Shown: in pieces, positions 20,351-64,000 of the stretch | Layout: each line of letters opens with the position of its first letter | How positions within the stretch are numbered: position 1 is the stretch's first letter | Virus record (IMG/VR): IMGVR_UViG_3300013426_000026 | Coordinates: 1-64,000 of that record | Origin: a virus | Taxonomy: Duplodnaviria > Caudoviricetes | Strand: one strand, 5' to 3' | DNA length: 64,000 nt | Translations under genes and position numbers: made by a program | The notes under the pieces: model-generated | Told to the model about the DNA's origin: nothing | The model's database searches: none | Seen by the model: only the letters and a program-made list of their open reading frames with translations

Positions 20351-21406
20351 TTGATAAAATTAGATTATACTCTTGAAACTCCTGAAGAAAGAAATGAATT
20401 AGTCAGAAAAATTTTAGAAGAAAATCCCGACCCAAATGATAAATATTTGGAAATTCTTGCAGACTATTTAATTCTTTGTATGGAGAAACAAGAAAAAAAA
20501 GAAAAAAAGATATTAACTGATAATAGATTAATGACAGTTAATAAACGTGAAACTTCTTTTGAAGGTCTTGTTTCCCAATTAGAAAATGGTGAAGATGGTA
20601 TTTATAATTTAATTAATAGCGATAAAAATATGATATTTTAGCCTAAAATAACAATTACAAAGAAAGATTTAGAAGATATTCCATGTTTACAATAGTTAAA
20701 AGATACTATTACCCTTTGGGAAACAAAAATGAAAACAGTAAGTGGTAAAGATGCCTTTACTATGAAGCGCGCGCTTATTGAAATGCGCAAAGACCAATAT
20801 GTAATTAAAAATGCTTATCGGAAACCAATAGTGCCGATTAAATTAACTCGTTCTAAATACAAAGTTGTTTTGGATGAAGATGTTAAGACATTTGATGATG
20901 ACGGCTATCCTATTCCAGAAGGCGTATCATTAATGAATCCTGATATTTGCTCTTGTATTTTATGCAATTATTCGCGTTTAAAAGAAGATAGCTGGGACCG
21001 CTTTGAAGATGATACTTGGTATTTAATTTATGATTTTGAACAAACTTGCGATGAAGCCTTGGCTGACCATCCTATGTTAATGCGTATCGTAGAATATAAA
21101 ATTGATGGTTTGTCTAACGCCGATATACAAGAAGCAATTGAAGCGGAATTTGGTATAAAACATAGCCTTGAATATATTTCAAGTTTATTCCGTAATAAAA
21201 TTCCTAAGTTAATTGCGAGTAAAGCCATCGATAAATATTTAGAATGGTATTATTCAACTTAGGCACAAGGCACTTATAAAAAATGTAGCCGATGTGGGCA
21301 AGTTAAGTTAGCGCATAATAAGTATTTTTCTTTAAATAAAACAAGTAAAGATGGTTTTTATTCTATCTGTAAAGAGTGCCGGAATAAAAGCCGTAAACTT
21401 AATTAA
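20351..21406 (+). CDS. putative transcription regulator, HTH-like segment plus C-terminal CxxC..CxxC zinc finger (TAG=Gln, 351 aa)
   Basis: joins track ORFs 20351 and 20729 through TAG at 20639, 20693 and 21260; GLSNADIQ...SLEYISSL; CSRC...CKEC. Confidence 0.7.
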
Positions 21407-21429
21407 TTTAGAGAAAGGAGCGAATTAAT

Positions 21430-22987
21430 TTGGCCGATAATAGTAAATTATATTATTGTGAAAAATGCCATAAAACGATGGATGGTGCTCAATTTTACAC
21501 TTCAAACAATTTAGAAAAATATCCTAATGACGGCAAATTGCCTCAATGTAAAAAATGTATAACTATGCATGTAAATAATTGGGACCCAAGTACGTATTTA
21601 TGGATTTTACAAGAGGCTGATGTTCCATATATTCCCGACCAATGGAATCAGCTTATGGCGAAATTCGCTAAAGACCCTAAGAAAGTAGGCGGAACTACTA
21701 TTATGGGGCGCTATCTTTCAAAAATGAAACTTAATCAGTGGAAAGAGTATCGTTGGAAAGATAGTTAGTTTTTACAAGATTTAAAAAATAAAGAAATTTC
21801 CGAAACAATGAAAAATCAAGGCTATGACATTTAGGAAATAACTAAAGTTATTACTTAGACTTCATTCGATATGCCGACCGAGGAACTTGCTTAGCCGGAA
21901 GTACCTGCGGCGATTGGTGAAGCAAACATAGCTGATTATTCAATTCAACCACCTCCTCCGCCTCCTGGAATGAGTACCGCGGATGAAGATTATTTTAAAG
22001 ATAAACTTGATTTTGATGTGCCGGATCTAGGTGCGGAATTAACTGATGAAGATAAGCGTTATCTTTATTTAAAGTGGGGTAAAGGTTATACTCCTGATGA
22101 ATGGGTGCGCTTAGAGCAATTATTTAATGAAATGATGTAGTCTTATGATATTTAGTCGGCAGGCCACATTGATACATTAAAACTTGCTTGTAAGACATCA
22201 TTAAAATCTAATCAATTGCTCGATATAGGCGATAAATAATATCTATGTCGCCTTTAAACTCTTTTAATTGCTGGAAACCCCTTAGAGCTACATCAACCAC
22301 AACGTAGTCATGAAATATGGGCAAGCGTGATGGTTTGAAAATGATATGGATTGGGCAATCAGCAACTAAGGCTCGAATAGAGCAAAGCTCAACGACTAGT
22401 CGAAAGACGTAGGGGCAAGCGCCTCGAAATGGAGAGCATCTTTTTAAATTATTGGTAAAAGATGAAGATATAGTCTGAACTTTATAGAAATATAAAGAAA
22501 AAGCAGTAGCGATGCTTTAAACAAAATTATGGTAGACGGCGCCCAAAAGATGGTAAAAATGTATGATTAGTTGATGAAGAGTGGTAAATTTACTGCTGCT
22601 CAAAATAAAGAAGAATCGGGCGATTTTGTTGACTCTGTTGGTGAATTAATAGAAATGTGTGAAAAACAAGGATACATTGAACGATTTTATATTGATTCAC
22701 CAAATGATAAAGTAGATTTTACTATTCAAGATATGCAAAAATATACAAGAACTTTAATTGAGCGAGAAACTAATCTTGGACCTATGATTGAATAGGCTTT
22801 AACTCAAAATGCTAAAGAAGATGCAGCAGCTAAAGAAAATACAGAAGATACCATCGTCGATGATGCTGATTTATCTATTGAGGATATGGAAAAAACATTA
22901 AATGACAATGATTATGTTGCTTTTGACGAATTTTTAGATAATGAAGCTGAATTAGATATAGATGCTTTCTCTGATAGGGAGGATTAA
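21430..22987 (+). CDS. putative terminase small subunit-like protein, spliced (21430-22233 + 22532-22987; TAG=Gln)
   Basis: N-terminal CxxC..CxxC; lies immediately upstream of TerL; removing the intron restores the frame LLDIGD|VDGAQKM. The function is inferred from position only. Confidence 0.65.
22234..22531 (+). ncRNA. group I intron without ORF (298 nt)
   Basis: P1 GGCGAU/GUCGCC with U.G; P AATTGCTGGAAAC, Q AATCAGCAACT, R TCAACGACTA, S AAGATATAGTCT; terminal G; P10 GUAGA/UCUAU. Confidence 0.9.
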
Positions 22988-22990
22988 TTT

Positions 22991-25900
22991 ATGGCTTTAC
23001 AAGACTTATTAGATTTATCATAGACTCATAAAAAAATTGGTCTATCGGAAGAGCGCGTAAATGCGGTAATGCCTGTTATTAGAAAATATACAGCTTTTTG
23101 GCGCGAATACCCTGATTTATTTGTAGATTTTATGGTAAGAGGAACTCGCGTAGAAGCTAAAGAAGGAGAATTTAAATTTTATTTTTATCAAAGAGTTTTT
23201 CTTCGTTCGGTTATGCGATATTAGTACATATACTGTGTGTTTCCCCGAGCCTACAGCAAGTCCTTTTTATCAGTTATGGCTTTAATGGTTAGGTGTATTC
23301 TTTATCCTGGCGTCCATTTATTTGTTACTTCTGGTGGCAAAGAGCGAACTACTTTGCTCTGCATTATAGCAATATAGTGAAAAATAAAGTTTTTGAACTG
23401 CTGGAAAATCTGAAAGCTTCGTGACTACAATATGAATAATTACTCTAAATTTATATGAATGTGTTGAAAAACAGAAAAAACAACGAAGATGAGATATGAA
23501 GAAATTCTAAGTCTTAATAAAAGATAATCAGCAACTAAGCAAGGAGAGTAAATAAATGAGAAAATTAATATTAAAAGAATTTTAGGATAGAGTTAATAAA
23601 GCTCATCCAAAAGAATAGCTATTAGTGATTAAGTATACTTCTCGATTGGAAAATTGTGAAGTAAAATGTTTAAAATGCAATTCTATTTATATTAAAAAGG
23701 GTTATAATTTTTTAGATGATAGGAAAGTAAGTATCTGTAAGAAATGTTTTCCCACTCAAGAAGGTGTGTTTAAAAATGGTTATGTCCCTCCGGAGGGGTA
23801 TACTTTGATAGAACCATACTAGGGCGCCCATAAAAATATCCTCGTAAGACATAAATGTGGATTTATTTGGAAAGTCAAACCTAATAATTTAAATTTTGGT
23901 AAAGGATGTCCTAAATGTAGTAAAAAAATGTCTAAAGGCGAACAAAAAATTATTAATTATTTAGAAAAAAATTAGATAGAATATAAATTTTAGATACCTA
24001 TTTAGTTAGAAGGACATAGTTTAGTTGTGGATTTTTATTTACCAGATTTTGATTTATATATAGAATATAACGGAGAATAGCATTATCGTCCTATAGAGCA
24101 TTTTGGCGGTATCGAAAAATTTAATAAATAGATTGAAAATGATAAATTAAAATAGAGGCATTTTAATAATTTATTGGTAATTTCTTATTTAGATTTTGAT
24201 AAAATAGATCAAATCCTTGAAAGCTCAACGACCATCCCAATTGGGAGTAGGGACAAGCGTCCCGAAGTGGAAACTATCTAAATTTAGATAATGATATGGT
24301 CTAATCTATATAGAAATATATAGCATTCTTTTGAAGAATGGCTAAAAAGTAGCGACTTTTAGTTAATAAAATGAAGGTGCTAGTATTTTGCATGATAAGG
24401 TTCACGAAATATGTGATTTAATTCCAAGCTTTAAACGCGAAATAGTCTGGGGCCGTGGACAAAAGTCTACTCAAGAAGGTAAGGATAGAGTGCGTTATGT
24501 GTTTAAAAATGGCTCCGTCCTTGATAATTTAGCGGCTAGAGAAAGTACTCGTGGTTAGCGTCGCAATGGCGGCTTGATGGAAGAATGCGTAGGTATTGAT
24601 GATTAGATTTTGCGCGAAGTTATTATTCCTGTTATGGCTATTGATAGACGTGCAAAAGATGGCACTACGCATGAAGAAGAACCAGTTAATAAGAGCCAAA
24701 TTTATATTACCACAGCAGGCTATAAAAATACATATCCTTATGATAGACTTATTGGTTTATTAGTTCGTATGGTTACATAGCCTGACCGTTGTATGGTTCT
24801 TGGGGGTACTTGGCGTACTCCAGTGGCGGTTGGCTTACAAAGAAAAACTTTTATTGAAGACCAAAAACAAGAAGGAACATTTAATGAAGCTTCGTTCGAA
24901 CGTGAGTATAAAAATGACTTGTACTCATTAAATATCGTGAATTGCTGGGAACTCCTTAGAGCTTCATAAACTACAGCATAGCTATGAAAAATAAGCAAGT
25001 GCGAATGTATAAAAATTATGAAGATTGGATAATCAGCATCTAAGACCCGAATAGGGTAAAGATCAACGACTATTTTTTAACAATGCGTTAAAAAGCGCGA
25101 TACTACATAGAAAGAAGGTTGTTATTATTGAAACAAATAGTTGTCAATAATTTTAGTACCTGGTATTATATTACCGAAGATGGCAAATGCTATAATAAGA
25201 AAACAAATAGATATTTAAAAGGATAGATTAACTATAAAACTGGTTATTTAACTTATTGGATAACTTTACCTGATGGAACTAAAAAACGCATTTCTGCTCA
25301 TCGAGCAGTGGCTAATGCATTTATTTTAAATTCAGAAAATAAAAAAGAAGTAAACCATAAAGATGGAAATAAGTTGAATAATTGTGCTGATAATTTGGAA
25401 TGGGCAACGCCTAAAGAAAATTAGCAACATGTTTTAGAGAAAGAACTAAGAAAATTTAAACATATTTTTTGTTTTAATAAAAATTAGCAATTGGTAGCTG
25501 AATATAAAAATATTATAGAAGCATCTAATGCTACTGGAATTGCAAAATCTATTATTGTCTAGGAAGTTAATAAAGAGATTAAAACATTAAGTGGCGGTTT
25601 TTATTGGTCTTATGAAAAAGAGTTAGGTCAAATAAAAAACTATAAAAATTTGGGTAAAAGTAAAAAAGTTAATCAATATACTTTAAATGGAAAATATATT
25701 AATACTTATAATTCTGTTGGTGAGGCTAGTAGATCATTGGGTATTAATCATTCTCATATTAGCGAATGCTGCCGTGGTAAAATTAAATCATATAAAAATT
25801 TTATATGGAGATATGTAGATGATATAGTCTTAACTCTTAATGAAAATTAAGAGAAGGTTATGCGAACCTTGTAAAATAATTAGAGTCTTTATGGACAGGC

Positions 25901-27228: not shown

Positions 27229-27585
27229 ATGAATGCCAGTAGAGGCGAAATTAAGATAAGAGAAATACTTGAAGAAGCCGGATTAAATTTTAAAATGGAA
27301 TACATTTTTCCTGATTTAAAAACAAGTCATGGGCGTCCTTTGCGTTTTGATTTTGTTATATTTGATGATGATGGGAATATTGATTTTCTTATTGAATATC
27401 AAGGGAAATAGCATTATGAGCCAAGCAATAAGTTTGGAGGAAAAAGAGGTTTTTTCCAATAGCAATATAACGATAATTAGAAACGTCGATTTTGTGCTTT
27501 GCACGATTTACGTTTAATAGAAATCCCGTACACTGAAGAAAATTTAATTTCTTATGATTATATCATGAAGAAAGCTGGATATTAA
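27229..27585 (+). CDS. small free-standing Vsr-like/PD-(D/E)XK endonuclease (TAG=Gln, 118 aa)
   Basis: SRGE..I, LRFDF, IEYQGK[TAG]HY, D..K..FC and LIEIPY. Confidence 0.8.
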
Positions 27586-27609: not shown

Positions 27610-29262
27610 TTGGAGAATAATAGAAATGAGCAAATCCATAAAAAGGGATTTGATATGACTTCTGGAGTAAAAGAATACTCTGTAGCTCCTGGGGAATATA
27701 AAAAAATCAAAGTTGGAGTAAAATCTCTTGATGATGCTGTATTAAATCTTGGCTCATTCAAGTGGGATACCTATGGACGTAGGAATGAAAAATATAGTCG
27801 AGAACGTATTTATACTAAACCAATGGTTATGGATGCTCTTATTAGAAATGATATAACCGAATTACGCAAAATATCTCGTTTCTTTTATAGAGTAAGCGGT
27901 ATTTATCAAACTGTATGTAATTATTTTGCTAATATGTATAGATATGATTGGTATATTGCTATATAGCATTAGCCTGGTGAAACTATTGTAGAAAGTAAAG
28001 CTTTAAAAGATTTCTGGCGTATACTTGATTTTTTAGATAATTCATACATTAGGAAAATTTGTGGGGATATTGCTTTAGAGGTTATTAAATGCGGAGCTTA
28101 CTATGGTTATATTTTGCCCTCACTAAATGGATTAGTTATTTAGCAATTGCCTATTGAGTATTGCCGTTCTAGATATAATGTAGGTAATATGCCTACTGTA
28201 GAATTCGATATGCGCTATTTTGATACTTTTGTAGATACAAATTACCGTAATAGAATTTTAAAATTATTTCCTGATGAATTTGAAACAGGCTATAGATTAT
28301 ATAAAGCTGGAAAATTAAAAGCGGATGTTGCTGGAGATAATACCGGTAGTTGGTATTTATTAGACCCTCAAAGTACTTTTAAATTTAGTTTAAATGGAAC
28401 TAATAGCACTCCTATATTTATTAATGCCATACCGGCGATTTTAGATTTAGATGCTGCGCAAGATTTAGATAGACGCAAATAGATGCAAAAATTACTTAAA
28501 ATATTGGTTTAGAAATTACCTACTGACAAAAATGGTGATTTAATTTTTGACGTTGATGAAGCAAGAGATATACATAATAATGCTGTTGAAATGCTTCGTA
28601 GAGCTGTTGGTGTTGATGTATTAACTACTTTTGCCGATGTTGATGCAATTGATACTTCTGATAAGAATACATCAGCCACAACTGATGAATTAGAACGAGT
28701 TGAACGTACAGTTTATAATGCTTTAGGCGTTTCGCGCAACTTGTTTAACACTGATGGCAATTTGTCTTTGGAAAAATCTATTTTAGATGATGAATCAACA
28801 ATGCGTAATTTGTTGTTGCAATTTCAGATATTTTTTGATAAAATAGTATAGGTGTTAAACATAAACAAGAAAAAATATAGTTTTAAATTTTATATGTTAG
28901 AAACAACACAGTATAATTATAAAGAGTTATCTAAAATGTATAAAGAACAAACATAGATTGGTAATTCTAAAATGTTAGCTCAAATTGCTCTTGGACAATC
29001 GCAAAGCTTTATTCTTAATGCCGCTCATTTTGAGAATGAAGTATTACATTTGAGTGAAATTATGATACCTCCTCTTATGAGTTCAACATTAAATGGCGAA
29101 GATATTTTGGGTAAAAAGGATTAGAGTAGTTCTAGTACTTCTCAAAATAATACAGGGACTAAAGTTGCTTCTACGGAAACTAAAGAAGCGGGTCGCCCGG
29201 AAAAACCCGATGATTAGAAAAGTGAAAAAACTATAGCTAATCGTGAATCAAGTGCAAATTAA
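27610..29262 (+). CDS. portal protein (TAG=Gln, 550 aa)
   Basis: three track ORFs in one frame joined by TAG; size and position after TerL; C-terminal AGRP motif. Confidence 0.75.
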
Positions 29263-29275
29263 AGGAGGGGAGCTT

Positions 29276-30004
29276 ATGGGGAAATCTATTGATATTTCAG
29301 GAAATAAATATAATAGATTATTAGTTTTAAGGAAAACTAATAAGAAGATGGGAACTAATTATTTATGGGAATGTCAATGTGATTGCGGAAATATAACTTA
29401 TGCCTCTAAAAGTGCTTTAGAAACCGGCCATAAAAAATCCTGTGGTTGTTTACATACTGAGCAAAGAAGCGGCCTTGGTAAAAGCAAAAAGAAAGAATTA
29501 AAAGATCAAAAGTTTGGAATGCTAACAGTTATTTCAGAAAGTAATAAACGCAAAGATGGAAGAGTGATTTGGAATTGTTTATGCGATTGTGGAAATACAG
29601 TTGCTCTCACTTCTCATGATTTATTAATTAACAAAAGGAATAATTGCGGTTGCTAGATGGTTAGGTCTAAAGGCGAATAGAAAATTGCTACTATTTTAAA
29701 GCAATATAATATTCCATTTGAATAGGAAAAAATTTTTTCTGATTTAAAATATAATGGAAAAAATTTGCGATTTGATTTTTTCGTAAATAATTAGTATTTA
29801 ATAGAATATGATGGAAAATAGCATTTTATTAAAGATAGTGGTTATGGTTCAGACCTTGAGAATATTTAGAGAAGAGACCGAATAAAAAATCAATATGCTA
29901 AAGAAAACAATATTCCTTTAATTAGGATTAATTATTTAGACTATAATAATATAACTATTAATGATTTGATTTTGAATGGAAAGGAGGAAGTCATTAATGC
30001 ATGA
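29276..30004 (+). CDS. free-standing homing-type endonuclease: two W.C.CDCG repeats plus Vsr-like domain (TAG=Gln)
   Basis: WECQCDCG...SCGC and WNCLCDCG...NCGC, then SKGE, LRFDF and IEYDGK[TAG]HF. Confidence 0.8.
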
Positions 30005-32363: not shown

Positions 32364-33497
32364 ATGTTAGATAGAAAAAATCTTGTTCAATTAATGAAAA
32401 CTGTAGCTAAGGCCGATCCTGCTTCTCCCGTTGCTTACAGTTATGGCGGTGAAAGTCTTTCTTATGAAGCTCTTAATGAAACGCTTCGTAGAGAAATGAA
32501 TGAACTCGCTGGTACTTATTCTCTTTATCGTGAAAATAAGAATTTAATTTATTCCATGATTGAAGAGACTATTGATGAAGTTCTTCCCAAGAAGGTTGAG
32601 GAACAATATAATCAGTTCGCTGAAGTTAAGACTTTCAAGCAGGGCGATAAGCCTATCTTCCGTAGAAAGTTCAGCAACAATACTCGCGCCAAGCAGTTTA
32701 TTACTCGCGTTGGTCTTGCTGGCATCTATGAAGTCTTTAAGCTTGGTAAGAACGAAGAAAGCTTTGAAGTCCGTACATCTGCTATCGGCGGTGCTGCCCA
32801 GATTGGCTTTGAGGAATTCCTTGATGGCCGTGTTGATTTTGGTACTGTAACTCAGATTATCATGGAAGGTATGGATGAGCTTATTTATAAGGAGATCGCT
32901 GGTGCCCTTAAGGCTTCTATCAATCAGCTCCCTCCTGCTAACCGTGTTGTTGGTAATGGTTTTGATGAACCCGCATTTGATAAACTTCTTATGATTGCTT
33001 CAGCTTATGGTACTCCTACTATTTATTGTACTTATGAGTTTGCTGTTCGTATGATTCCGAAGGATGCATGGCGTTATACTGAAGCTATGAAAAATGAGCT
33101 TTGGAATACTGGTCGTCTTGCTTCTTATAAGGGCTATAAGGTTGTTATTCTTGAACAGGGCTTTGAAGATGCTACCAATGAAACCAAGGTTATCGATCCT
33201 GGCTATGCTTGGATTATTCCTACTGGTGCTGATAATAAGCCTGTAAAAGTTGCTATGGAAGGTAACACCATTGTTGATGAATATACTAACTATGACCGTA
33301 GTCGTGAAATTCAGGTTTATAAGAAGGTTGGCGTTATTGCCATGTTAGCTAACAACATTTGCTGCTATTGTGATACTGAACTTCTTGGCGATATGAAGAC
33401 TTGGCATCTTGATGGCGTAACTGGTAAGGTCCGTGACTATGCTGGCCAGCTTACTGGTTCTCATGATGTTGATGGCGGTACAGTTGATAAGCCGTAA
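32364..33497 (+). CDS. major capsid protein
   Basis: 377 aa, strongly biased codons, no TAG; position after protease and decoration genes; terminator downstream. Confidence 0.8.
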   Translation: MLDRKNLVQLMKTVAKADPASPVAYSYGGESLSYEALNETLRREMNELAGTYSLYRENKNLIYSMIEETIDEVLPKKVEEQYNQFAEVKTFKQGDKPIFRRKFSNNTRAKQFITRVGLAGIYEVFKLGKNEESFEVRTSAIGGAAQIGFEEFLDGRVDFGTVTQIIMEGMDELIYKEIAGALKASINQLPPANRVVGNGFDEPAFDKLLMIASAYGTPTIYCTYEFAVRMIPKDAWRYTEAMKNELWNTGRLASYKGYKVVILEQGFEDATNETKVIDPGYAWIIPTGADNKPVKVAMEGNTIVDEYTNYDRSREIQVYKKVGVIAMLANNICCYCDTELLGDMKTWHLDGVTGKVRDYAGQLTGSHDVDGGTVDKP

Positions 33498-33532
33498 TTT
33501 TGACAATTACTAAAAATTAATATATAATATTT

Positions 33533-33598: not shown

Positions 33599-34174
33599 AT
33601 GGGAAATAATAATAATGCAATGATTACAGTATGTAATCGTAGCGCGGGCATGGTAGTATATAATATTCATGATACTGGAGTCCGTAGAGAATTTATGCCG
33701 GGTGAAGTAAAAAAGGTTCCGTATAGTGAATTGCAAATGCTTGCTTATCAAAGTGGCGGACGCACGTTAATGGAAAATTTTTTACAAATTACTGATATTG
33801 AGGCTGTTGATGATTTAGGAGTTAGGACAGAACCGGAATATTATCTTGATGAACAGGGTGTTATTGATTTATTAAAAAATGGTTCTCTTGATAGTTTTCT
33901 TGATTGCCTTGATTTTGCACCTATTGGAGTAATTGATTTGGTAAAACAGTATGCTGTTTCTCTTCCTTTAGACAATTATGATAAGAGAAAAGCTTTAAAG
34001 GAAAAGACTGGTTTTGATGTTGATAAGGCTATCGCCAATTTGGAAGCTGAAAAAGCTGATACTGATGAGCAAATTATGTCAAAAGCCCCAGAGCGTAGAG
34101 TAAAGCCGGCTACAGAAACTGTTCCTGCAGGTCGTAGAGTTGCTCCAAAATATAATATTGTAAAGAAAGATTAA
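33599..34174 (+). CDS. hypothetical head-associated protein
   Basis: 191 aa, AAGGAG RBS, no TAG. Confidence 0.75.
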   Translation: MGNNNNAMITVCNRSAGMVVYNIHDTGVRREFMPGEVKKVPYSELQMLAYQSGGRTLMENFLQITDIEAVDDLGVRTEPEYYLDEQGVIDLLKNGSLDSFLDCLDFAPIGVIDLVKQYAVSLPLDNYDKRKALKEKTGFDVDKAIANLEAEKADTDEQIMSKAPERRVKPATETVPAGRRVAPKYNIVKKD

Positions 34175-38251: not shown

Positions 38252-39575
38252 ATGAAATTTGGTGTGAATCGCTTGCACTAATATACCCTATCCTTTATCA
38301 AAGGGGTTTGTTTAAATAACAAGCTAACGGGGAATGTCCTTAAGAAGGAAGAATCCCGTGTCATGTTTATTTTATAATAAACGCGATGTAGAGACTAAAT
38401 ATTTTAATCAATATTGTAAGTCCACTATTGATACGTGGGCTGAAAAGGGTATAATAATGGCTTTGACCATTATTAAGAGATAGTCCATAATTTAATAATT
38501 ATGACGCGAAATATGCGATGTAGTATTAAAAGCTCGTGCTCCTATGAAGGTTGGTAATAAAGTTTTCTATGCTAATGAGCCTGTTCTTTATTTCGATACG
38601 TTAAAAACTTCTAGCCTTGAAGGCGCTTCTACTACGGTTTATGCGCAAGGTGGTCGTGGTAATGCTCGTTTAGTTGCATGGGATGGCGACCGTACTTTAA
38701 CGTTTACAATGGAAGATGCTCTTATTTCGGCGGAAGGCTTTATGATTCTTGCTGGCGCCGGTCTTATTGATGCTTCTAAGCAGAATACTATTAAACAGCA
38801 TGTAACCGAAAAGACTACGGCTGTTGTTCTTGCGGAAGACAAGAAGAGTGTTCAAATTTTTACCAAGAATTTACCTTACGAGCAGATTGATGCTACTACT
38901 GGTGCGCACAAGGGTGAATTCTATATCTATGCTATGCGTGTTGACAATGATGAGCCTGTAACTGAGCCTTATCTTCCTACTGTTATTCGTCAGGCTGAGG
39001 AAACCACTAAGCCTCAGAAGTTCTATTTTGATGAAGACGAAATGAAGTATAAGACTTGCACTGACGCTGAAGCTGAGACTAAGGCTAAGGCAGGTGTCCA
39101 GATTTATTATGGTCTTCAGATTAAGGAAATCACTTCTACTTATAGTATTGTAGATGAAACTGATGCCGATGCCGAACATAAGATGGAACTTTTTGATGGT
39201 GCGGTTGTTCTTCTTGATTATTACATCGAAAGAGCAAGTAAGGCTCGTCAGATTGAAATTACTGCCGAATCTTTTGGTGGCAACTTCTATCTTGAAGCTT
39301 CTACCTTATTCCGTACTCAGGATGGCGTTGATCTTCCTGCGGAATTTATAATCCCGAATTGCAAGATTCAGTCTAACTTTACCTTTAGTATGGCTGCTAC
39401 TGGTGATCCTGCGACTTTCACTTTTACGCTTGATGCTTTCCCTGGAACCACTCGTTTCAATCCTACTAAGAAAGTGCTTGCTGCTGTTCAGATCATTGAA
39501 GATATTGATAACGATAGTGTTTATCGTACTCAGACTATCCATGATCCGGCTCATGACAGCTACTTTGATATTTAA
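38252..39575 (+). CDS. major tail (tube) protein, spliced (38252-38265 + 38504-39575; 361 aa)
   Basis: AAGGAGG RBS; splicing gives MKFGVREICDVVLKA; GGRGN..L..W and IPNCKIQSNFTFSMAATGDP; no TAG. Confidence 0.8.
38266..38503 (+). ncRNA. compact group I intron without ORF (238 nt)
   Basis: P1 UUUGGUGU/GCACUAAA with U.G; P CTAACGGGGAA, Q AATCCCGTG, R GTAGAGACTA, S AAGAGATAGTCC; terminal G. Confidence 0.88.
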
Positions 39576-41658: not shown

Positions 41659-41768
41659 AGTATTTAAAGGGTTTCCTAAATTAATTAGGAATATGTAAGG
41701 GTATGAGGATATTCCTCATACCCTTTTACTTTTATATAAATATTATAAAGAGAGAAAGGAGCAAATTC

Positions 41769-44700: not shown

Positions 44701-47700
44701 AAGCACAAGCCTTATAGCAAGAAGCAAGCGCTGAAAGTGCAGACACTGCGGCTACAGGTTCACGAGGATTACTTTCTAACATATCCGGAGCCACTTCACT
44801 TGCGATTGGTTTAGGCTCTGTTATAGCTATTTTAACTCTTATTAATTAGTTGTTTGAGGCTCATAAAAATAAATTAATAGAAACTGCATAGACTAGTTAG
44901 GAATATTTATAGACTTTAAAATCAGAAATAGATACTAATAATGAGTTAATTGACAGCTATGAAGAAACTTTAAAGACTTACCAAAAGACCGGAGAAGGAA
45001 AAGCGGAATTACGAGAAGTAGGCAGTAAATTATGTGATAGCTTAGATATTGAAAATTCAGCTTTATTAATTCAGCAAGGACGGTATGAAGAGTTAGCGAA
45101 AAAAATTAAAGAAGCTAATTAGGCTAAATTAAATGGCTCAATATAGTCAGCCGACCAGGCTATTAATGATAATTTTTCCGCGGGAATTTTACAAGGTTCA
45201 TACACAAAGTATAATTCTACTCAAGGAACTCATAGAATTTATAGTGGTAATAAAAATAAGTTTACTAAAGATTTTGAAATAGAGTTATTAGCTGATAATC
45301 CTAATTTAATTGGATGGGACAATTATACTTCGATTAGTAATTCTAATGATTTTGTTAATTGGTATGAAAAAGCTTAGAATATACAACAAGCTACTTTAGA
45401 AAAAGCCGGAAAACAAGGAATTAAAACAGAAGATATTTCTTATCTTAAAAAATTAAATGAATTTTTAGCTGATAATAAAGAATTTTATGAAAATACAAAA
45501 GCTTTATTAGATAATGAAAATTCTTTAATATTAGATAAAGCGTGGTTTGGTTCAGATTCAGAAAATGTAAATTCTTTAAAAGAGTATACAAATTTTCTTA
45601 AAGAATTTAAGAGTGAGACTTTAAGTTTAAATTCTGAAGATTCTGATGGAATTATTAATAGTTATTTATTTGGTAAAGAGGGTATTGGGAACTATGCCCT
45701 TTAGTATTCTGCTTTGGAAGAGTGGTTAAAAAATGCTAATGTTACTTCCGCAGTTACTCCTGAAGATATAATAAATAATTTTTCTGATTAGGATATTGAA
45801 ATATTATTAAATTTACGTACTGAGGCTACTGGAGTTATTAGCGGAAATGATTGGATTTCTTCTTTTTAGAATTTAATTAAACTATCTCAAAAAATAGCTG
45901 ATAATTCGCCCATTGAATTTAATATTTCAATTGCAAAAAAAGCAAAAGAAAAATTAAAAAAAGAAATGGACGAAGATGATTGGACTAAATATTTTAAAGA
46001 TGTAGATATTCCTTGGGGACAAAAAGGTTGGGTTACATAGTCTGGTTTTTAGTCTATGACTGATAATCAAAGATAGCAATATTTATCATAGAAATAGATT
46101 GAAGAAAATCAAACAAATTATGAATTAATTTAGAATAAAGATGCTTGGATTGCTAATTAGCAAAGTATTTATGATGAATTAATAGCTAATAATACGGCTA
46201 AAATATAGGATTTAAATAATTCAGCACCGACTGATGAAGATATTCAAAGAGCACAAAATACAATAAATAATGATGAACAAAGATAGTCTAACCTTAAGTG
46301 GTTAGAAGAAATGACTAATACTTATAATTAGATTTTAGAAGATGCTGGATTAAAAGATTAGAATGCTATTGATAAAGCCTTAGATGCTAAATCAGATGAA
46401 GCAAATAATGCTTTAATACAAGCTTATAATCTTATGTCTTTAGCTTAGGCGACTGTAGATAGAGATAATTAGAATTTAATTAATGCATAGGATACAATTT
46501 CATTATCTGAAACTTATAGTGAATTAGTTACCGATGCTGAAAAATATGGTGAACAATTAGCCTCTGAAAGAAATAATATTGAAGATTCTTATAATGCTAT
46601 TATTCAATCTTTTGAGAATTCTCGTAGTTAGATGCTTTCATCGATTAATCTTTAGAATTTAGATATCGGCGATACTATTACTGCTGATGCGTATTCAACA
46701 TTAGAGTCTTTTGGAATTCATGTAGAAGATTATTTTTCAGAAATGGATGATGGTACTTACAAATTAATTGCAAAAGCATAGGAATTAAATAAAATTTTAG
46801 GAGTAGCTTCTATTGAAAATGCTTATAATGCTGCTGATAATTTTGTTAGCTCTATTTATAAATCTTAGAATCTTGAGCTTCCTGAAAATATGCAAATTCC
46901 GCGAGATACTTTTTTAACTATAACCAATAGTATAATAGATAAAGGTATTCCATCGAATTGGGATAATGAGTATAAGGAATCTTGGATCAAAGCTGCCGGT
47001 TTGAATGTTGAAGAGTATAAAAATAAATTGGATGAAGGCGTTGTTGAAGCTGCTAAACATTATCAAGAATTAATTAATAACGGCGATTATCAAATCGATG
47101 TTACAGTTCTTAATTCTGATAATATGCTTGATTTAAACAAAAATGCTAAAGCTGCCGGAATAGATACAACGGATAAACGGTATACAGATGCTATGGTTAG
47201 TATGGCTTCAGAAGCGGGCATAGAGTATGACGCTACAGTAACTGCTGTTATTGATGCACAATCAAAATATGATGAAGCTATAAGTAATTATGGTGAAAAC
47301 TCAGAATTAGCCAAAAAAGCCACAGAAGATTTATCGAAAGCTCAAGATAATTTAGCTAAAAATATTCGTACTATTTAGTTTTATAAAGCAACAGAAGATT
47401 TAGCTAATTATATGAAAACTTTAAAAACTACTAAAGATAATACTGAAAAAATGACTACGGCAACTAAAGCCGCAGAAGCCATTAGTAAAGCTTTTGGTAA
47501 AACTGTTGATTCTTCTTTTGTTTTAGATAAGGAAAATTAGAAGTTAATTGATAAATTAATTAATGGCACTTAGAAGCAAAAAAATGAGGCAGCATTTAAG
47601 ATTGATTTAAAAATCGATAATACAGAATTTACAAAAGACGTGAAAGATGCAGTAAAAGATGCTTCGGGAGATGCTGGAGAAGAAATAAATAGATCTTTTG

Positions 47701-50700
47701 CTACTCAATTTGAATAGGTAGATTTAAGTGAATCTATAACTAATGGTATGGAACAAGGAGTCCAAACTGGGGCCGATGCGGTAAGGGCTACAATAAATAG
47801 TTTAAATGGATTAACTTTTAATGCAGATGGTTCTATTAATATGGATAATTCTTCGGCTGTTAGTGCCTTGCAAGGTCTTCAGACCGCTTTAGGTAATACT
47901 ACTGGAGAAGCTGGACCATTAGCTGGTATATTAAGCAGTATTTTATAGACCAGTATGACTCTTGATTCTGCTCAAATTCAAACTTTAGTAGATTTTTTAA
48001 CAGATTTATTTAATGCTTTATAGGGCGACGCAAGCGCCTTAGAGAGTATCGCTAGTAAAGGGGCTACTCAATTAACAAATGCTGGTATTGACATGACTGG
48101 CATGGGCCCAGGAGAAAACGAATGGACTAATATTACTACTAAAGGACCTTCTGGTGGAGGTGGAGGCTCTTCCTCTAAAAAGTCTGCTTCTGATATAGGT
48201 AAAGAAATTCAAGATAAACGTATTGCAGTTAATGAAAAAAAGCGTGAGTTATTAGAAACAAAACGTGAAGGTGCTAATCCAGAAGATGCACAAAAATATA
48301 TTAAAGAAGAAATTGACTTACTCGAAGAAGAACAATAGCTTCTTGAAGAATAGATTAAATCTTGGAAAACTTTATTAAAGACTAAAGTTCAAGAATTTAA
48401 TGCTAAACATCCAGAATTAGAAATTACTCTTGATGACAATGGCGAAATTGCTAATGCTTCTGAACTTTGGGGTAAAGTTTGGGCTGAATATGAAAAAAAT
48501 ATGCAAGAGGGCATGTCTGGCGAAGAACTCAATGAATGGTTTACTAAAATCAGTAATGATATTAATGGGCCTATGGGTATCCAAGAGAATATTGATGAAA
48601 ATGTCGCGGCCATTGCTTAGAAAGAAAAAGAGTAGGCTGAGCTTGAGCTTGAATCAATAACTAAAGCCATTGATTGGAAAGTCAAACAAATTGATTTCTA
48701 GATTAAGCGTCTTAATTATTATCAAGAAAAGCTTCTTAAATAGGCTCATGGCAATAAACAAACTATTGAAGCAATGCTTGAAGGATTTGCTTACCAAGAG
48801 CAAGAAATGCTTTAGTTGTTTGATAAAGGTGCTACATTGCGCAGTGGCATTGATCAATTAAATTCGGCGAAAGCACAATATCCAGATTATGCGCAAATGT
48901 TTGATGAATAGATACTTGATTATCAAAGTGATTTGATTGATGTTAATGAAGCTATTCTTGATTTGCGTAATGACATTGAAGACCTTGTGCAAAATGTTAT
49001 GGATTTGGCGCTTGATGAGATTGATAAATAGATAGAACGTCTTGATACTTATACATCAATGCTTGACCATCTTAATAATATTATTGATTTGTCTGGTCGT
49101 TCAATGCTTGATATGGGCCTGAAGACTTAGATTGGTGCTACTAAAGTCCAAACTATGATTGGCAAAATGACCACTCTCAAAGGTCAAATGGATGGTTTGG
49201 TTAAAGCGCAAAAAGAAGCCGAAGAAGCATTGGCCGATCGTAGGGCTGATGGAGATGAATCTTCTGTTAAGTTCTGGGAAAACCAAGTTGAGGTTATTAA
49301 ACAAGAAGTTGAAAAGGCATCCGATGAATTCCTTGGTTCTTGGGAAGAAACTCTTGAAGCTGCGCAAGATTTATTTGAAATGCGCGTGGAGATGGCAATT
49401 AATACATTAAGTAATGCCCTTTCGCCCTTTGAGACTCTTGAAGATTTTTAGGATAAATACGAGAAAGCCAAAACTATTAATGACCAATATCTTGATGATG
49501 CAGAACGCCTCTATGAATTAAATAAACTCAATCGCCAGCTCAATTTATAGATGAAAGATACTGATGACCTTTTGGCTCAAGAAAAACTTAAAGAGATTTA
49601 GAAAGAGATTAACGATCTTCAGGCCGATGGCGTCTAGATGAGTCAATATGACCTTGAGTATTTGCAAAAGAAATATGATTTACAACTTGCCGAAATTGCC
49701 CTTATGGAGCAATAGAATTCAAAGACTTCAATGCGTTTAGTACGTGATGCCGCGGGCAACTGGACTTATGCCTATGATGCCGATGAAGAAAAAATTGAGG
49801 ATGCTACATAGAAATATGAAGATGCGGTTCATGATTTAGGTGAGTTAAGTAAAGATTATATTAATGATGTAAGTGAATAGTTAATCCAAAATTAGATTGA
49901 TTTTAAAGAAGCCTTACAAGATCTTGATAAGAATTCGGCAGATTATTCCAATTAGCTGTTAGCTTTACAAGAATACTACGTTGAAAGACAAAGATATTTG
50001 CTTGATGAATTAAATAAAGGTGTTGTAAATAGTGGCCAAACCTTCCATGATACTTTATATGGTCAAATGACTGATTTGTATGATTACAATGATGCTTATA
50101 TGCAATTTGTTAATAATTCTAATATTACAATTAGTGAATTATAGACTAATTATAAAGATTGGCAAAAAGTTGTTGAAACTGCAATGAACGTTGCTGGTAC
50201 GTCTTGGGACAATTTTGGTACAGACATGGGAGGAACTCTTGATAGTCTTGAAGAACATATCCAAAAGCTTTGTGATGAAATTGAAGAACTCGTTGATGTA
50301 TTAATGGGTTATATTTCATAGTCTATTGGTATGGTTCTTGATTGGGAATAGAAATATTCCAAGAGAACTGACCAAGAGCTTGCCAAGAACGAAAGCTATA
50401 TTGATGGTAATTTTAGTGGCGGTGGGGGGAGGTATACTGACGTTGATATGCGTACTGATTGGAATCGTGTTATAGCTGAAATTACAGCTACTGGTACCTC
50501 AAAAGATGCCTATGGTAATATTGTTACAGATATTAATTAGGCTTATGAAAATCGTTAGGCAAAGTAGGATAAGATGAAGGAAGGCGTAAAAGCTGAACAT
50601 GAAAAGTCTGGTGAAAGCTTTACCGATGATGAGCAGGCAGCTGCAATTGCTAAATCCAATAAAGACGTAGCTGACGAAATGCATAAGAAATATGGTTCTG

Positions 50701-51086
50701 GCGCCGCAACAGGTGCTTATACTGGTGATTGGGGTTTTGGTCAAGGATTCGGTCCTGATAATGGCAAGTTAATTAAAGTCCATCCAAAGGAATTAATTCT
50801 TAATAAAAAGGATACTTCTAATATATTGCGCGCGGTTGATATTGTACGTAATATGAATACTTGGGTGGATGATTAGATTAAGCGCATGAACCAACAAAGT
50901 CAATCTGCGATTAGTGATTTAATGACTGATATTATGCCTCCTGTTTATAATGATTAGCCCATTCAATAGGACGTTAAGATAGAAGCTAATTTTCCGAATG
51001 TCACTGATCATTATGAAATTGAAGAAGCATTGTCTAATCTTAGTAATGATGCTGCATAGTACATCAGCGCGAATAGAAATAGATGA
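41769..51086 (+). CDS. tail tape measure protein (~3105 aa; TAG=Gln)
   Basis: seven track ORFs share one frame; TP901-type core (ESADTVGNSLKTLFARI); helical composition; C-terminal HPKELILN. Confidence 0.85.
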
Positions 51087-57648: not shown

Positions 57649-57671
57649 CAGAAAGGAGAAAACAGGAGTTT

Positions 57672-60926: not shown

Positions 60927-60939
60927 GGAGGGAAATAAA

Positions 60940-61674
60940 TTGGCTCAAAATTTTGCATAGATAGTATATAATCTTGAAGATTACAGCGGGTCTGGCGGTT
61001 TAATTTCTACTAAAAAATTTGGTGATACAAATTCATAGATTGTAAATGTAGTGTATAGTGATGTACCAGCACCTATTAAAAATTTTGATAATTTAAATGG
61101 TTAGATTACCGAAGTCATTAATAGTTTTGAAGAATATGAAAACGCTAAAATAGATATATATAATTCTAATGTATTAGGCCCATGGGAAGGCACGTTGATT
61201 AAAAAAATTGGTATTCAAGGGCCTCCTGGAACTAAATTTATTATTGGCGATAGTGGGACTACCAATAGTATGGATCATGTGATTATGATTGGCCGAACTG
61301 GCATATATGAATTAAATGATGATATAGTAATTAAAAAATTATAGTTTATTAGACCTCTCATTTATAAAATTGACGAAATTGCTAGTAAGAGTTTAACTAC
61401 TACTGGATTAGCCCAAATGACGAAGGCAAGAGATGATTTTTTGGCTAATGTAGAAGGTATTTCTTACCAAGGTAATGTACCGCCTTATTCTGAAACTAAT
61501 AGTGAATATTGGGATTAGTATTAGCAATATCATAAACAATATGTTTCAGCTTATCGAAATGGTTTGGCTTTGTATTTAAAAGGCAAGGCCGGTATTTATA
61601 CTGAAGATGGCAGTAATAGTGATTTATATAATATTATAATTGATTTTACATATGAAGGAGTGAGAGTAGGCTAA
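60940..61674 (+). CDS. hypothetical tail protein (244 aa; TAG=Gln)
   Basis: AGGAGG RBS; KIGIQGPPGTKF and IGRTGIYEL; TAATG-coupled to the next gene. Confidence 0.65.
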
Positions 61675-64000
61675 TGTATAGTTTTTATGGTGGCCAAAAA
61701 GGTCAAGATTTTAAAATAAGTCGAATTTTTTCTAACCGAGCTGTAGATATGCTTGGAGATTTAAAAATGCGATGGACATCACCAGTTGGTGTTGGCGAAT
61801 ATGTTTTTATTAGTTATGGCGATCCTTCATATATGAATGAAGAAGATTCGGTCTATAATGAAAATTTATAGATTGATTTAAAAGCTTCGGGTAAATCTTT
61901 TACTAATTCTTTGTGGCAAAAAATTTATGTTGATAAAAATTTAGAGGTTTCTCCTGACTTTCCCGATGGAGACAATAATGTTTATATCTTTTTGAATCTG
62001 GACGATACAGAAAGTGAAGAATACGGCAATTCTTTAAAAGAGACATCGGATTTAGAAACTGAAGAAAACTTCGGTTTGGGATATAGATTAATCGCTTGTA
62101 TAACTGGCGTTACGCCTCGTATTAGAGTTTTTCATCAAACAATTAATCTTGAAGATGGAGACCCTTATGTGACTTTGGATTTGACTAATCCTGATACACC
62201 AAAAATTAAATTCTATTTATAGCGTGGATAGAGAATTAATGATTTATATAAAACAATGATAGGTTCCTAGGAAGAGCCTTCTATTGATTATATTGTTGAT
62301 TCTAACTTTTATTATAAAGATAAAGATGGAAATAATAAATAGGCAACTTTAACAAATCCTTATGTTAATTTTAATTTGCCAAAAGCGCCAACATTTTTTA
62401 CTGGTGGTTTATTTGGCGCCGGTGCGTTATCAAGATTTCGTAATATTGGATATATTAATGATGATTTAACTAAATACGTTAGTGATGAATATACCTTATA
62501 TCAAAGTGATTGTAAATTAATTAGTGATATTAGTTGGTTTTTACGCAGAATGCTATATGCGGATAATGTAGAATATACTTATAATGAAACCACAGATACA
62601 ATAATTATAGATAATGGAAATCATTTTAATTTACAACTTCCAGAAAATTATAAAGGAACTGCTTATAAATCTGGCATTTGGATTTAGAGCGATAACCAAA
62701 TTATTTTTAATATTTTAAATAATACTTCTCTTAAAAATGAAATTGCTGAATTTAGATAGAATTTAATTGATACTTATAAAATTAGTGATAATTTTGAAGA
62801 TGGTGATGAAAGCGACCAAAGAACAAAATGGTATTGGATAAGACCTGAGACTGGGGAATAGATTAGTCTTTGGAATACAATGATTAACTTTTACCCAACT
62901 TTATTAAATTCAATTCATGAATTAGCTTATGCAATTTTTTGTTATTTAATGGTTATTGAGAGCTAGACTTAGCCATTTTATATTGATAATATAAATATTT
63001 GTAATTATTTAGTTTCTGTTTTTAATTTATATGCTAGTATAGATGTTCATTTTAATGAGATATTAGAAAAAGGATTTAAAGGTGATTTTTATATTAATGA
63101 ACCAACTGGTAAAATTTATGAGATTGCTGAGGTTGGGAAAAAATATATTATTGTTTTATATTTGGGAGCATTAACGGCGCCTGCTCCGGTTCCTGAGAAT
63201 ATATTTATTTCTAGTTTTTATAAAGCCAAAGATGGTACTTATTAGAAGAATCAGTTTTCTGTTTCATCATCTATACAAGAATTAAATAATGATAAATATT
63301 AGGAAATTTATAAATTTGAACTTCCTAAACTTCCCGTATCTAAATTTACTACTACAAGGACTGATAATTTAAATAGTTATGAAATTGATGAACCAGTGCC
63401 TTTAAATGAAAATGATCAGGAAATAAACGTAAAGACCCCAATGCCTATACATATTTTTACTCCCGATGATGAGTATAATATGTATATAACTGTTAATGGT
63501 GAGTTTGGTTTTAAGAAAGGTAAAAATATTTTTTCTTTAATTGATGCTCCAATAGGAAAAGGTGATTTATTTATAAATATTACATCTAATGGTTCTAGTG
63601 CGTATTAGGGTAATGTTTATCAATGTAAATTATCTTATGACGAAATTCAAGAAAGAATTAAAAATTATCAAGGCCCAACTATTACGCTTAAAGATATCTG
63701 GGATTAGGATAATCCTCTTGGGAATATCTAGGGGCAATCTGGTATCCCTATTGCAACTTAGGTAGTTAATTTATATAGTAAATTACCGGCGGATTTTGCG
63801 AATGATTTTGGTAATAATAAGGTTATGTATGTCGGTTTCGTAGATGGAACTACTGATAATTTTATTTATTATATTAACCCATCAGTAATAGAAGACGACG
63901 AATTCAACTTAGAGATTTTAATTAAGAATAATGTATTAAATGGATAGCAACGTGGTATTAAAACTAGCGATGATATACCATTATTTAATATTGATTTTAA
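61674..64000 (+). CDS. putative tail fibre/minor tail protein, partial (runs off the window; TAG=Gln)
   Basis: four track ORFs in one frame from MYSFYGGQKG; no TAA or TGA seen before the window end. Confidence 0.65.

What the first reader, a model, noticed from the sequence alone, without database searches (positions are those of the whole stretch)
20351..64000. Amber (TAG) reassignment to Gln in late genes, with a code-neutral early region
Seen: late genes are interrupted by in-frame TAG but keep one frame over kilobases and end in TAA or TGA. TAG sits at the conserved Gln of E-Y-x-G-x-Q-H in three separate nucleases (24078, 27409, 29819). About 30 early genes use neither TAG codons nor TAG stops, so they translate correctly under either code. 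Established: code-15 gut phages with late-biased recoding are described. Inference: a suppressor tRNA(CUA) and possibly a release factor or synthetase lie outside this window.
Basis: partly seen in the sequence, partly recalled or inferred. Interest (0 to 1): 0.8.

Follow-up and report, generated by a model that had tools for sequence, protein, structure and literature searches.

The report
Gut phage reads TAG as glutamine
This is part of a large uncultured gut phage that reads the stop codon TAG as glutamine in most structural genes, while about 37 early genes work under either code; such phages are already described, so it is a clear but ordinary example.

Summary
The window is the first 64 kb of a 103-kb viral contig, about 56% complete.

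- **Coding density.** In 20351-64000, reading through TAG raises it from 0.48 to 0.94. It also opens a 3127-aa tape-measure gene that holds 95 TAGs.
- **TAG means Gln.** Portal columns in 80 relatives hold only CAA, CAG or TAG. A likelihood test over 20 late genes favours Gln. The EYxGxQH site is CAA/CAG/TAG in 49 relatives. A TAG in NrdD is Q in 119 of 120 homologues.
- **Early block.** 37 minus-strand ORFs have no TAG and stop at TAA or TGA. Eight perfect host-type promoters sit among them.
- **Caveats.**
  - A TAG-bearing island lies at 1464-4694.
  - The zero count of TAG stops is only weakly significant (P about 0.06).
  - The capsid gene and two other virion-module genes avoid TAG, here and across the family; a fourth avoids it in relatives.
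  - Core replication genes are TAG-poor, and homing endonucleases are TAG-rich.
- **Suppressor.** The contig has no tRNA. Four of five complete recoded relatives carry tRNA(CUA), in the region this contig lacks. No release factor or Glu/Gln synthetase was found.

This is a new member of a known kind (Borges 2021; Babkin 2023). The scan has notes with these keywords in at least 509 other genomes.

The parts
5517..20168 (-). Early block: 34 small tightly packed ORFs with no in-frame TAG and only TAA/TGA stops. CAG is the commoner Gln codon across the 37 early ORFs, counted together with the three at 61-1000.
   Evidence: Eight perfect TTGACA-17-TATAAT promoters lie on this strand at 7722-19541, and seven more match 11 of 12.
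61..1000 (-). Three more TAG-free ORFs with strong Shine-Dalgarno sites
1464..3053 (+). TAG-bearing island inside the left arm. It holds a winged-helix/ScpB-like gene (1464-2177, 9 TAG) and two small ORFs (4 TAG each).
   Evidence: Coding score; PHROG 3396 at E 1e-7 across residues 43-205
3984..4694 (-). 236-aa ORF with 6 in-frame TAGs and a high coding score, no family match
20292..20320 (+). Perfect host-type promoter (TTGACA-17-TATAAT) directly upstream of the first recoded gene
   Evidence: A site matching at least 11 of 12 is conserved upstream of the homologue in 35 of 42 recoded and 18 of 22 standard or low-TAG relatives.
20351..21406 (+). Protein of the PHROG 5767 'sigma factor' family with a C-terminal zinc ribbon; 3 in-frame TAGs
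   Evidence: PHROG E 5.5e-51; no Pfam hit; weak fold likeness of residues 202-301 to sigma domains, Z 6.3-7.0. All 45 recoded relatives carry 1-6 TAGs in it.
20351..64000 (+). Late/structural block read with TAG=Gln: 30 genes, 290 TAG, stops TAA 27 and TGA 3. The last gene runs on to contig position 64247.
27610..29262 (+). Portal gene, 9 TAG. At four of them, 80 relatives hold only CAA, CAG or TAG.
   Evidence: PHROG 2739; codon alignment
41703..51086 (+). Tape-measure gene, 3127 aa, 95 in-frame TAG, ends in TGA
32364..33497 (+). Major capsid protein gene with 0 TAG (CAA 2, CAG 9)
   Evidence: Homologues in 48 recoded relatives have TAG/(TAG+Q) of 0.01.
33599..34174 (+). TAG-free late gene preceded by a perfect host-type promoter at 33500-33528
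38544..39575 (+). Virion structural protein gene (PHROG 2729) with 0 TAG (CAA 2, CAG 12). An 11-of-12 promoter starts at 38428.
24078..24080 (+). TAG at the Gln site of IEYNGE-Q-HY, in a homing endonuclease (23556-24281, 9 TAG) that is absent from relatives G001 and G003
27409..27411 (+). TAG at the Gln site of IEYQGK-Q-HY, in a conserved 118-aa nuclease-like gene (27229-27585)
29819..29821 (+). TAG at the Gln site of IEYDGK-Q-HF, in a homing endonuclease (29093-30004, 7 TAG) that is absent from relatives G001 and G003

Best explanation
The window belongs to a large (probably 150-190 kb) siphovirus-like phage of gut Bacillota, most likely Clostridia. It is a distant relative of phAss-1.

The phage uses genetic code 15: TAG is a glutamine codon, and only TAA and TGA end genes.

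Likely mechanism (inferred unless marked shown):
- On entry, the host's standard-code ribosomes and its sigma-A RNA polymerase express a block of about 37 small genes. These sit behind consensus promoters, contain no TAG and do not stop at TAG (sequence features shown; expression inferred).
- A phage tRNA with anticodon CUA then builds up. It is encoded in the part of the genome missing from this contig, as in relatives. It reads TAG as Gln.
- Only then can full-length products be made from genes that carry TAG. These are the sigma-like regulator, terminase pieces, portal, tail and tape-measure genes, and the homing endonucleases.
- TAG has taken over the share of Gln codons that CAG holds in early genes (shown by counts).
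- The most abundant virion proteins avoid TAG, which suggests that suppression is costlier than ordinary decoding.
For: Code:
- Coding density rises from 0.48 to 0.94 when TAG is read through.
- Four portal columns in 80 relatives hold only CAA, CAG or TAG.
- A likelihood test over 20 late genes puts Gln ahead of Glu by more than 3,500 log units. The sequences are not independent.
- The motif site is Q or TAG only.
- The TAG at NrdD residue 21 is Q in 119 of 120 homologues, which include bacterial ones.
- Opposite our TAGs, the closest relative has TAG 166, CAA 48, CAG 15 and about 23 other codons.
- TAG columns of our clade align to Q in the 21 standard-code relatives. Among conserved columns, 8 of 10 are Q.

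Timing:
- The contig has 12 perfect sigma-70 consensus promoters against 0.05 expected per strand. Eight of them precede early genes.
- TAG per 1000 codons is 0 in early genes, 1.5 in core replication genes and 21 in late genes.

Codon shares: early genes have CAA 43, CAG 52, TAG 0. Late genes have CAA 321, CAG 57, TAG 290.

Suppressor:
- tRNA(CUA) is present in complete recoded relatives G003, G007, G008 and G009, and in the incomplete G002 and G010.
- It is absent from the two complete standard-code relatives G013 and G015.
- Synteny places it outside this contig.

Literature: the same model is in Borges et al. (10.1101/2021.08.26.457843). Peptides that read TAG as Gln were found for crAss-like phages (PMC9523058). 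phAss-1 is described in PMC10607447.
Against: - No suppressor tRNA is present in the 103 kb available, so this phage's own decoding agent is unseen.
- One complete recoded relative (G006) has no tRNA(CUA). The closest relative, G001 (83% complete), shows none either.
- The 'early' and 'late' classes are inferred from promoters, gene content and strand, not from expression data.
- The absence of TAG stops in early genes is only weakly significant (P about 0.06).
- TAG-bearing genes lie inside the left arm (1464-4694).
- The host is not identified.
- Some TAG sites align mainly with Glu or Lys in relatives, as expected for variable sites.
Confidence: 0.93

Rival explanations
1. TAG is read as an amino acid other than glutamine. 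Candidates are glutamate, pyrrolysine/lysine, or a class II tRNA residue such as Ser, Leu or Tyr.
For: - Glu and Lys are the next most common residues opposite TAG.
- Some portal TAG columns are mostly GAA/GAG in relatives.
- Hosts in Bacillota usually make Gln-tRNA through Glu-tRNA(Gln), so mis-charging with Glu is conceivable (my own knowledge).
- An earlier scan note (e1-5757069) reports a cattle-gut phage that seems to read TAG as Glu.
- Relatives G009 and G010 carry 89-nt tRNA(CUA) genes with a long variable arm.
Against: - Gln beats Glu by more than 3,500 log units and Lys by more than 3,900.
- Every invariant column that contains TAG is CAA/CAG.
- The NrdD site is Q in 119 of 120 homologues.
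- Of our clade's TAG columns that are conserved in standard-code relatives, 8 of 10 are Q.
- The type A tRNA(CUA) of the nearest relatives that have one carries U1, a mismatched 1-72 pair and G73. These are Gln-like identity features by my own knowledge.
- That tRNA folds as an ordinary cloverleaf; by my own reading it lacks the unusual shape of tRNA-Pyl.
Confidence: 0.04
2. TAG is still mainly a stop and is only leakily read through by the host, so the long frames are made at a low level. This would be programmed readthrough rather than a reassigned codon.
For: - No suppressor tRNA or release-factor gene is seen in this contig.
- The abundant virion proteins avoid TAG, as expected if reading TAG is inefficient.
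Against: - A tape-measure gene with 95 TAGs needs near-complete reading. At 95% per codon only about 0.8% of chains would finish (arithmetic).
- TAG is 43% of Gln-type codons in late genes and is spread evenly along them.
- No gene in the contig needs TAG as its stop.
- Most recoded relatives carry tRNA(CUA) and the standard-code ones checked do not.
Confidence: 0.02
3. The TAG-interrupted frames are decayed pseudogenes or assembly and sequencing artefacts.
For: The contig is a metagenome assembly, and many genes look broken under the standard code.
Against: - Only TAG interrupts the frames, never TAA or TGA.
- The same pattern is seen in 59 of 80 independent relatives from many samples.
- TAG positions are conserved or exchanged with CAA/CAG.
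- PHROG matches run across TAGs.
Confidence: 0.01

Closest known systems
phAss-1 and related gut phages (proposed Phassvirus and allies; Babkin et al. 2023, PMC10607447)
   Same: - Large siphovirus-like gut phages with TAG read as Gln.
- A tape-measure protein of about 3150 aa that carries TAGs, against 3127 aa here.
- No dedicated synthetase.
- Relatives of Enterococcus phage EF1, with Clostridia as the predicted host.
- The group mixes recoded and standard-code members.
- phAss-1 is the second-best match in the phage collection for the portal (39% identity) and the capsid protein (49%).
   Different: - Only 39-49% protein identity, so this is not the same genus.
- Relatives of this phage reach 150-196 kb, against 133-138 kb.
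- The suppressor tRNA is not on the available contig, whereas phAss-1 has three.
Alternatively coded gut phage clades of Borges et al. (crAss-like, Lak, Garnet, Amethyst, Topaz, and code-15 members of Agate/Sapphire/Jade; 10.1101/2021.08.26.457843)
   Same: - Stop-codon recoding is concentrated in structural and lysis genes.
- Use in replication genes is variable or low.
- Early genes are compatible with the standard code, and the host uses the standard code.
- Suppressor tRNAs are the usual agent.
- Genetic code varies among close relatives. Here the portal tree needs at least 5 changes of state.
   Different: - I could not place this phage in one of their named clades.
- That paper's text, as searched, does not mention capsid genes or highly expressed genes. 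It therefore does not report the TAG avoidance in abundant virion proteins, nor the link to consensus host promoters seen here.
crAss-like phages with proteomic proof of code 15 (Peters et al. 2022, PMC9523058)
   Same: TAG is read as Gln in a human-gut phage.
   Different: - A different order (Crassvirales) with Bacteroidota hosts.
- Peptide evidence exists for those phages and not for this one.

Membership tests
Genetic code 15 (TAG=Gln) phage | In-frame TAGs in conserved genes; frames stay open and end at TAA or TGA | tested here: met
   290 TAGs in 30 late genes; stops TAA 27, TGA 3; coding density rises from 0.48 to 0.94
Genetic code 15 (TAG=Gln) phage | TAG positions align with glutamine in homologues | tested here: met
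   Invariant CAA/CAG/TAG columns; likelihood test favours Gln; NrdD site is Q in 119 of 120 homologues; standard-code relatives have Q at these columns
Genetic code 15 (TAG=Gln) phage | A phage-encoded suppressor tRNA with anticodon CUA | tested here: inconclusive
   None in the 103-kb contig, which is 56% complete. Present in 4 of 5 complete recoded relatives and absent from 2 of 2 complete standard-code relatives. Synteny places it outside the contig.
Genetic code 15 (TAG=Gln) phage | Peptides that span TAG with Gln | not testable with these tools
   No proteomic data are available
Code-switch model (standard-code early genes, recoded late genes; Borges et al.) | A set of genes free of the recoded codon and of its use as a stop, placed to be expressed first | tested here: met
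   37 ORFs with 0 TAG and TAA/TGA stops. Eight perfect sigma-70 promoters lie among them, against 0.05 expected per strand. Actual timing was not measured.
Code-switch model (standard-code early genes, recoded late genes; Borges et al.) | Phage-encoded release factor or aminoacyl-tRNA synthetase that helps the switch (present in only some clades) | tested here: not met
   No PF00472 or PF00749 match in this contig or in four close relatives, including the complete G003
Proposed genus Phassvirus | High nucleotide identity and shared synteny with phAss-1 (members are 80-86% identical to one another) | tested here: not met
   Portal 39% and capsid protein 49% amino-acid identity to phAss-1. This phage belongs at most to the wider family-level group.
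Sigma factor (gene 20351-21406) | Recognisable sigma-70 regions 2 and 4 | tested here: inconclusive
   PHROG 5767 'sigma factor' at E 5.5e-51. No Pfam hit even at E 0.1. Foldseek finds nothing below E 0.001. VIA-align gives Z 6.3-7.0 to sigma-H, WhiG and SigB over residues 202-301, below the tool's level of trust.

The most novel reading that the evidence does not exclude
The code switch may sit upstream of late transcription.

The first recoded gene (20351-21406, a 'sigma factor'-family protein) is transcribed from a perfect host-type promoter like the early genes, yet it carries TAGs in this phage and in all 45 recoded relatives. Its protein could therefore appear only once the suppressor tRNA is active. 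That would make the genetic code a timer that licenses the late programme.

In parallel, the most abundant virion proteins are kept TAG-free across the family, and some have host-type promoters of their own. This implies that suppressor capacity limits expression.
Probability: 0.2. Interest if true: 0.6.

Novelty: new member of a known kind. Interest (0 to 1): 0.3.

Why it matters
For annotation, the whole late half of this genome, and of more than 50 IMG/VR relatives, is shredded into fragments under table 11. Table 15 has to be used.

For biology, it is a clean example of a phage that keeps its first-expressed genes readable by the host code and writes most of the rest in another code.

The side results could be tested in any culturable member of this large Bacillota-phage family. 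They bear on how costly stop-codon suppression is and how the code flips back and forth:
- CAG has been replaced by TAG in late genes.
- Abundant virion proteins avoid TAG.
- Homing endonucleases are TAG-rich.
- The code state changed at least five times on the portal tree.
- The family holds three unrelated types of tRNA(CUA).

Tried and rejected
- **Other readthrough codes.** Reading TGA through gives no real gain in the late block (0.524 against 0.478).
- **tRNA search.** ARAGORN, with and without introns and in linear and circular mode, and Rfam RF00005 found nothing on the whole contig. A blastn search with relatives' tRNA(CUA) and tRNA-Gln found only 10-11-nt chance matches.
- **Rfam on the contig.** It gave only two group I introns.
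- **Solved-structure search for the endonuclease 23556-24281.** Only chance hits.
- **Sigma-like protein.** There was no Pfam hit and no Foldseek hit. VIA-align gave weak sigma-domain rows only, so I do not call it a sigma factor.
- **TAG positions in the sigma-like gene.** They are not conserved. One or more TAGs per gene is what the general rate predicts, so this gives no specific support for gating.
- **Late-promoter motif.** K-mer counting found nothing convincing. The GTGTTAAWAAAA boxes cluster only at 1229-2228 and are not general.
- **Anticodon-arm scan of viral contigs with the type A tRNA(CUA).** It hit 50 mostly unrelated contigs and was uninformative.
- **CTCTAAA pattern search in standard-code relatives.** Uninformative.
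- **Origin of the tRNA(CUA).** It is not a close copy of any other tRNA in these phages (at most 73% identity). A simple origin from tRNA-Gln(CUG) could not be shown.
- **Long tRNA-like genes in G001 and G003.** They are not suppressors. ARAGORN reads anticodon CAU in G001 and CCA in G003, each with an insert in the anticodon loop.


Full report
**What the window is.** The window is the first 64 kb of a single 103,394-bp viral contig. IMG/VR classes the contig as linear and CheckV estimates it as 56% complete. GC content is 33%. PHROG matches identify the following:
- On the plus strand from 20.3 kb: a sigma-factor-family protein, portal, virion proteins and a 3127-aa tape-measure protein.
- Beyond the window, on the minus strand from 68 to 103 kb: a replication and nucleotide-metabolism module with NrdD, DNA polymerase, Dda-like helicase, primase, DnaB, Sak4, ligase and topoisomerase II.

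The best matches in the phage collection are an unannotated faecal fragment and phAss-1. More distant matches are large siphoviruses of Enterococcus, Lactococcus, Bacillus and Clostridioides. IMG/VR holds at least 150 relatives of the portal gene, on contigs of up to 196 kb.

**The observation.** Reading TAG through raises the longest open frame from 1170 to 9402 nt. It raises coding density in 20351-64000 from 0.478 to 0.939, whereas reading TGA through gives only 0.524. Thirty plus-strand genes (20351-64247) hold 290 in-frame TAGs in 13,873 codons and end in TAA (27) or TGA (3). The tape-measure gene alone has 95. TAGs are spread evenly along the genes.

**Which amino acid.** Six tests point to glutamine.
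- In a codon alignment of the portal gene with 80 relatives, four of our nine TAG columns hold only CAA, CAG or TAG.
- Over 20 late genes with matches in relatives (TAG masked as X in the queries), the residues opposite TAG are Q 1536, stop 744, E 371 and K 337. A likelihood comparison with every amino acid's own substitution profile puts Gln ahead of Glu by more than 3,500 log units. The sequences are related, so this figure overstates independence.
- The site before His in [ILVFM]E[YFV]xGx?H is CAA 31, TAG 16, CAG 2 in 49 distinct contexts in relatives.
- Outside the phage family, the TAG in GRFN-TAG-GVVT of NrdD is Q in 119 of 120 full-length homologues. These include bacterial ones at about 77% identity, one of them named 'uncultured Clostridium sp.'. 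Two distant PDB homologues have Leu at this site.
- Against the closest relative, our TAGs face TAG 166, CAA 48, CAG 15 and about 23 other codons.
- Prompted by an earlier scan note about a Glu-decoding phage, I checked Glu specifically. In the 21 standard-code relatives, the portal TAG columns of our clade are mostly Q, and 8 of the 10 conserved columns are Q.

**The early block.** On the minus strand I count 37 ORFs (61-1000 and 5517-20168; 3,983 codons). They have RBS and ATG starts and tight packing, no in-frame TAG, and stops of TAA 27 and TGA 10. At the late-gene rate, 83 TAGs would be expected.

The 'early' label gains independent support. The contig has 12 perfect TTGACA-17-TATAAT sites against 0.05 expected per strand. 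Eight of them lie on the minus strand between 7.7 and 19.5 kb, each followed by an RBS and a start codon. Fifteen of the 32 sites that match at least 11 of 12 lie in this block and strand. The matching part of the complete relative G003 is also TAG-poor, at about 1 per 1000 codons.

Three cautions apply.
- The ORFs were defined under the standard code.
- Zero TAG stops in 37 genes is only weakly significant, because standard-code relatives use TAG for just 33 of 439 stops (P about 0.06).
- TAG-bearing genes lie inside the left arm. They are 1464-2177 (9 TAG, with a PHROG 3396 match running across them), 2444-3053 and 3984-4694.

**Finer pattern.**
- Gln codon shares are CAA 43, CAG 52, TAG 0 in early genes and CAA 321, CAG 57, TAG 290 in late genes. 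The CAA share is the same (45% against 48%), so TAG occupies the place of CAG.
- Three late genes have no TAG and prefer CAG: the capsid gene 32364-33497, 33599-34174 and the virion protein gene 38544-39575.
- Their homologues in 43-49 recoded relatives, and those of 31573-32346 (which itself has 2 TAGs here), have TAG/(TAG+Q) of 0.01-0.02. Neighbouring genes have 0.19-0.54.
- Two of these genes are preceded by host-type promoters, at 33500 and 38428.
- In the replication module, twelve core genes hold 8 TAGs in 5,372 codons (1.5 per 1000). Seven homing endonucleases across the contig hold 46 in 1,938 codons (24 per 1000).

**The decoding agent.** The contig has no tRNA. It is collinear with 73.7-165.1 kb of the complete 188-kb relative G003. 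That relative's tRNA clusters, at 1-7 kb (including tRNA(CUA) at 2466-2540) and at 31-37 kb, fall in the part our contig lacks.
- tRNA(CUA) is present in complete recoded relatives G003, G007, G008 and G009, and in the incomplete G002 and G010.
- It is absent from the complete recoded G006.
- It is absent from the two complete standard-code relatives G013 and G015.
- No release-factor domain or Glu/Gln-tRNA synthetase domain occurs in this contig or in four close relatives.

The release-factor or synthetase idea has no support.

**Mechanism.** The data fit the published code-switch model (Borges et al., 10.1101/2021.08.26.457843). Host machinery first expresses the TAG-free genes. The suppressor tRNA then allows translation of TAG-bearing genes.

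A tape-measure gene with 95 TAGs implies very efficient reading. At 95% per codon, fewer than 1% of chains would finish.

The first recoded gene (20351-21406) has a perfect host-type promoter and 3 TAGs. That promoter is conserved in relatives, and all 45 recoded relatives carry TAGs in the gene. This is consistent with translational gating of a late regulator. It is not specific evidence, though, because the TAG positions vary and the count matches the general rate. The protein's identity as a sigma factor rests on a PHROG label only.

**Comparison and novelty.** TAG=Gln phages with late-biased recoding and standard-code-compatible early genes are described (Borges et al.; Peters et al., PMC9523058). 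A related group with a tape-measure protein of about 3150 aa is described as phAss-1 and allies (PMC10607447).

This phage is too distant for the proposed Phassvirus genus (portal 39% identity). It is a new member of a known kind. On a quick portal tree the code state needs at least 5 changes, in line with the published finding that code varies within clades. The scan index holds 788 notes with these keywords in at least 509 genomes. Interest is therefore modest. The side results listed under 'Finer pattern' are the parts worth keeping.

Noticed in passing
window 22211-22497 (+): Group I intron (Rfam RF00028, 91.8 bits) between ORFs 21430-22239 and 22529-22987. The stretch 22234-22531 is missing from the closest relative G001, where the flanking sequences abut.
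   Followed up: partly
L002 2957-3251 (-), which is contig 86957-87251: Second group I intron (RF00028, 66 bits), next to the DnaB-like helicase gene.
   Followed up: no
window 23556-24281, 25119-25850, 29093-30004 (+): Free-standing homing endonucleases in the packaging region. Two are PD-(D/E)xK-like with the EYxGxQH motif, and one is HNH plus NUMOD1. The first and third are absent from relatives G001 and G003. All are TAG-rich (9, 4 and 7), so they are adapted to, or confined to, TAG-recoded phages.
   Followed up: partly
contig 72518-75695 (-), which is L001 8518-11695: NrdD is split into N- and C-terminal ORFs by a GIY-YIG homing endonuclease gene (5 TAG). This NrdD is about 77% identical to bacterial Clostridia NrdD and only 26% identical to the NrdD of close relatives G001 and G003. 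It therefore looks like a separate acquisition and a hint to the host.
   Followed up: partly
window 1229-1433 and 2195-2228 (+): Eight GTGTTAAWAAAA boxes flank the TAG-bearing winged-helix gene 1464-2177. The window has 15 matches against 3.9 expected, and they cluster here. They look like iterons and are not a general late promoter.
   Followed up: partly
window 13156-13659 (-): An ECF-transporter S-component-like membrane protein (PF07155, E 1.4e-8) in the early block, next to a HAD/nucleotidase-like gene (12652-13134).
   Followed up: no
window 23375-23380 (+): Gene 22991-23380 ends in TAG-TGA. The TAG directly before the stop could be a sense codon or a tandem stop.
   Followed up: no
L186 2729-2817 (-) in relative G009; L188 2173-2261 (-) in relative G010: These are 89-nt tRNA(CUA) genes. 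Their long variable arm forms a hairpin, GCC-UUCUGAG-GGC, that copies a tRNA-Gln(CUG) anticodon loop. TAG still aligns with Gln in these clades. The family holds three unrelated tRNA(CUA) types.
   Followed up: partly
relatives G001:C1:140786-140915, G003:C1:37015-37159 (-), G004:C1:135752-135897: tRNA-like genes with a structured insert in the anticodon loop, 58 nt in G001 and 73 nt in G003. ARAGORN reads anticodon CAU in G001 and CCA in G003 once the insert is removed. The G004 gene was not examined further. The inserts are too short for a group I intron.
   Followed up: partly
relative G013 (L189-L198), contig position 123974: A complete standard-code relative carries a tRNA with anticodon UUA (ochre-suppressor-like), along with both tRNA-Gln(UUG) and tRNA-Gln(CUG). 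It uses TAG for 15% of its stops.
   Followed up: no
relative G006 (L013, L181): A complete 176-kb TAG-recoded relative with terminal repeats (11 TAGs in its portal gene) has only 8 tRNAs and none with anticodon CUA.
   Followed up: no
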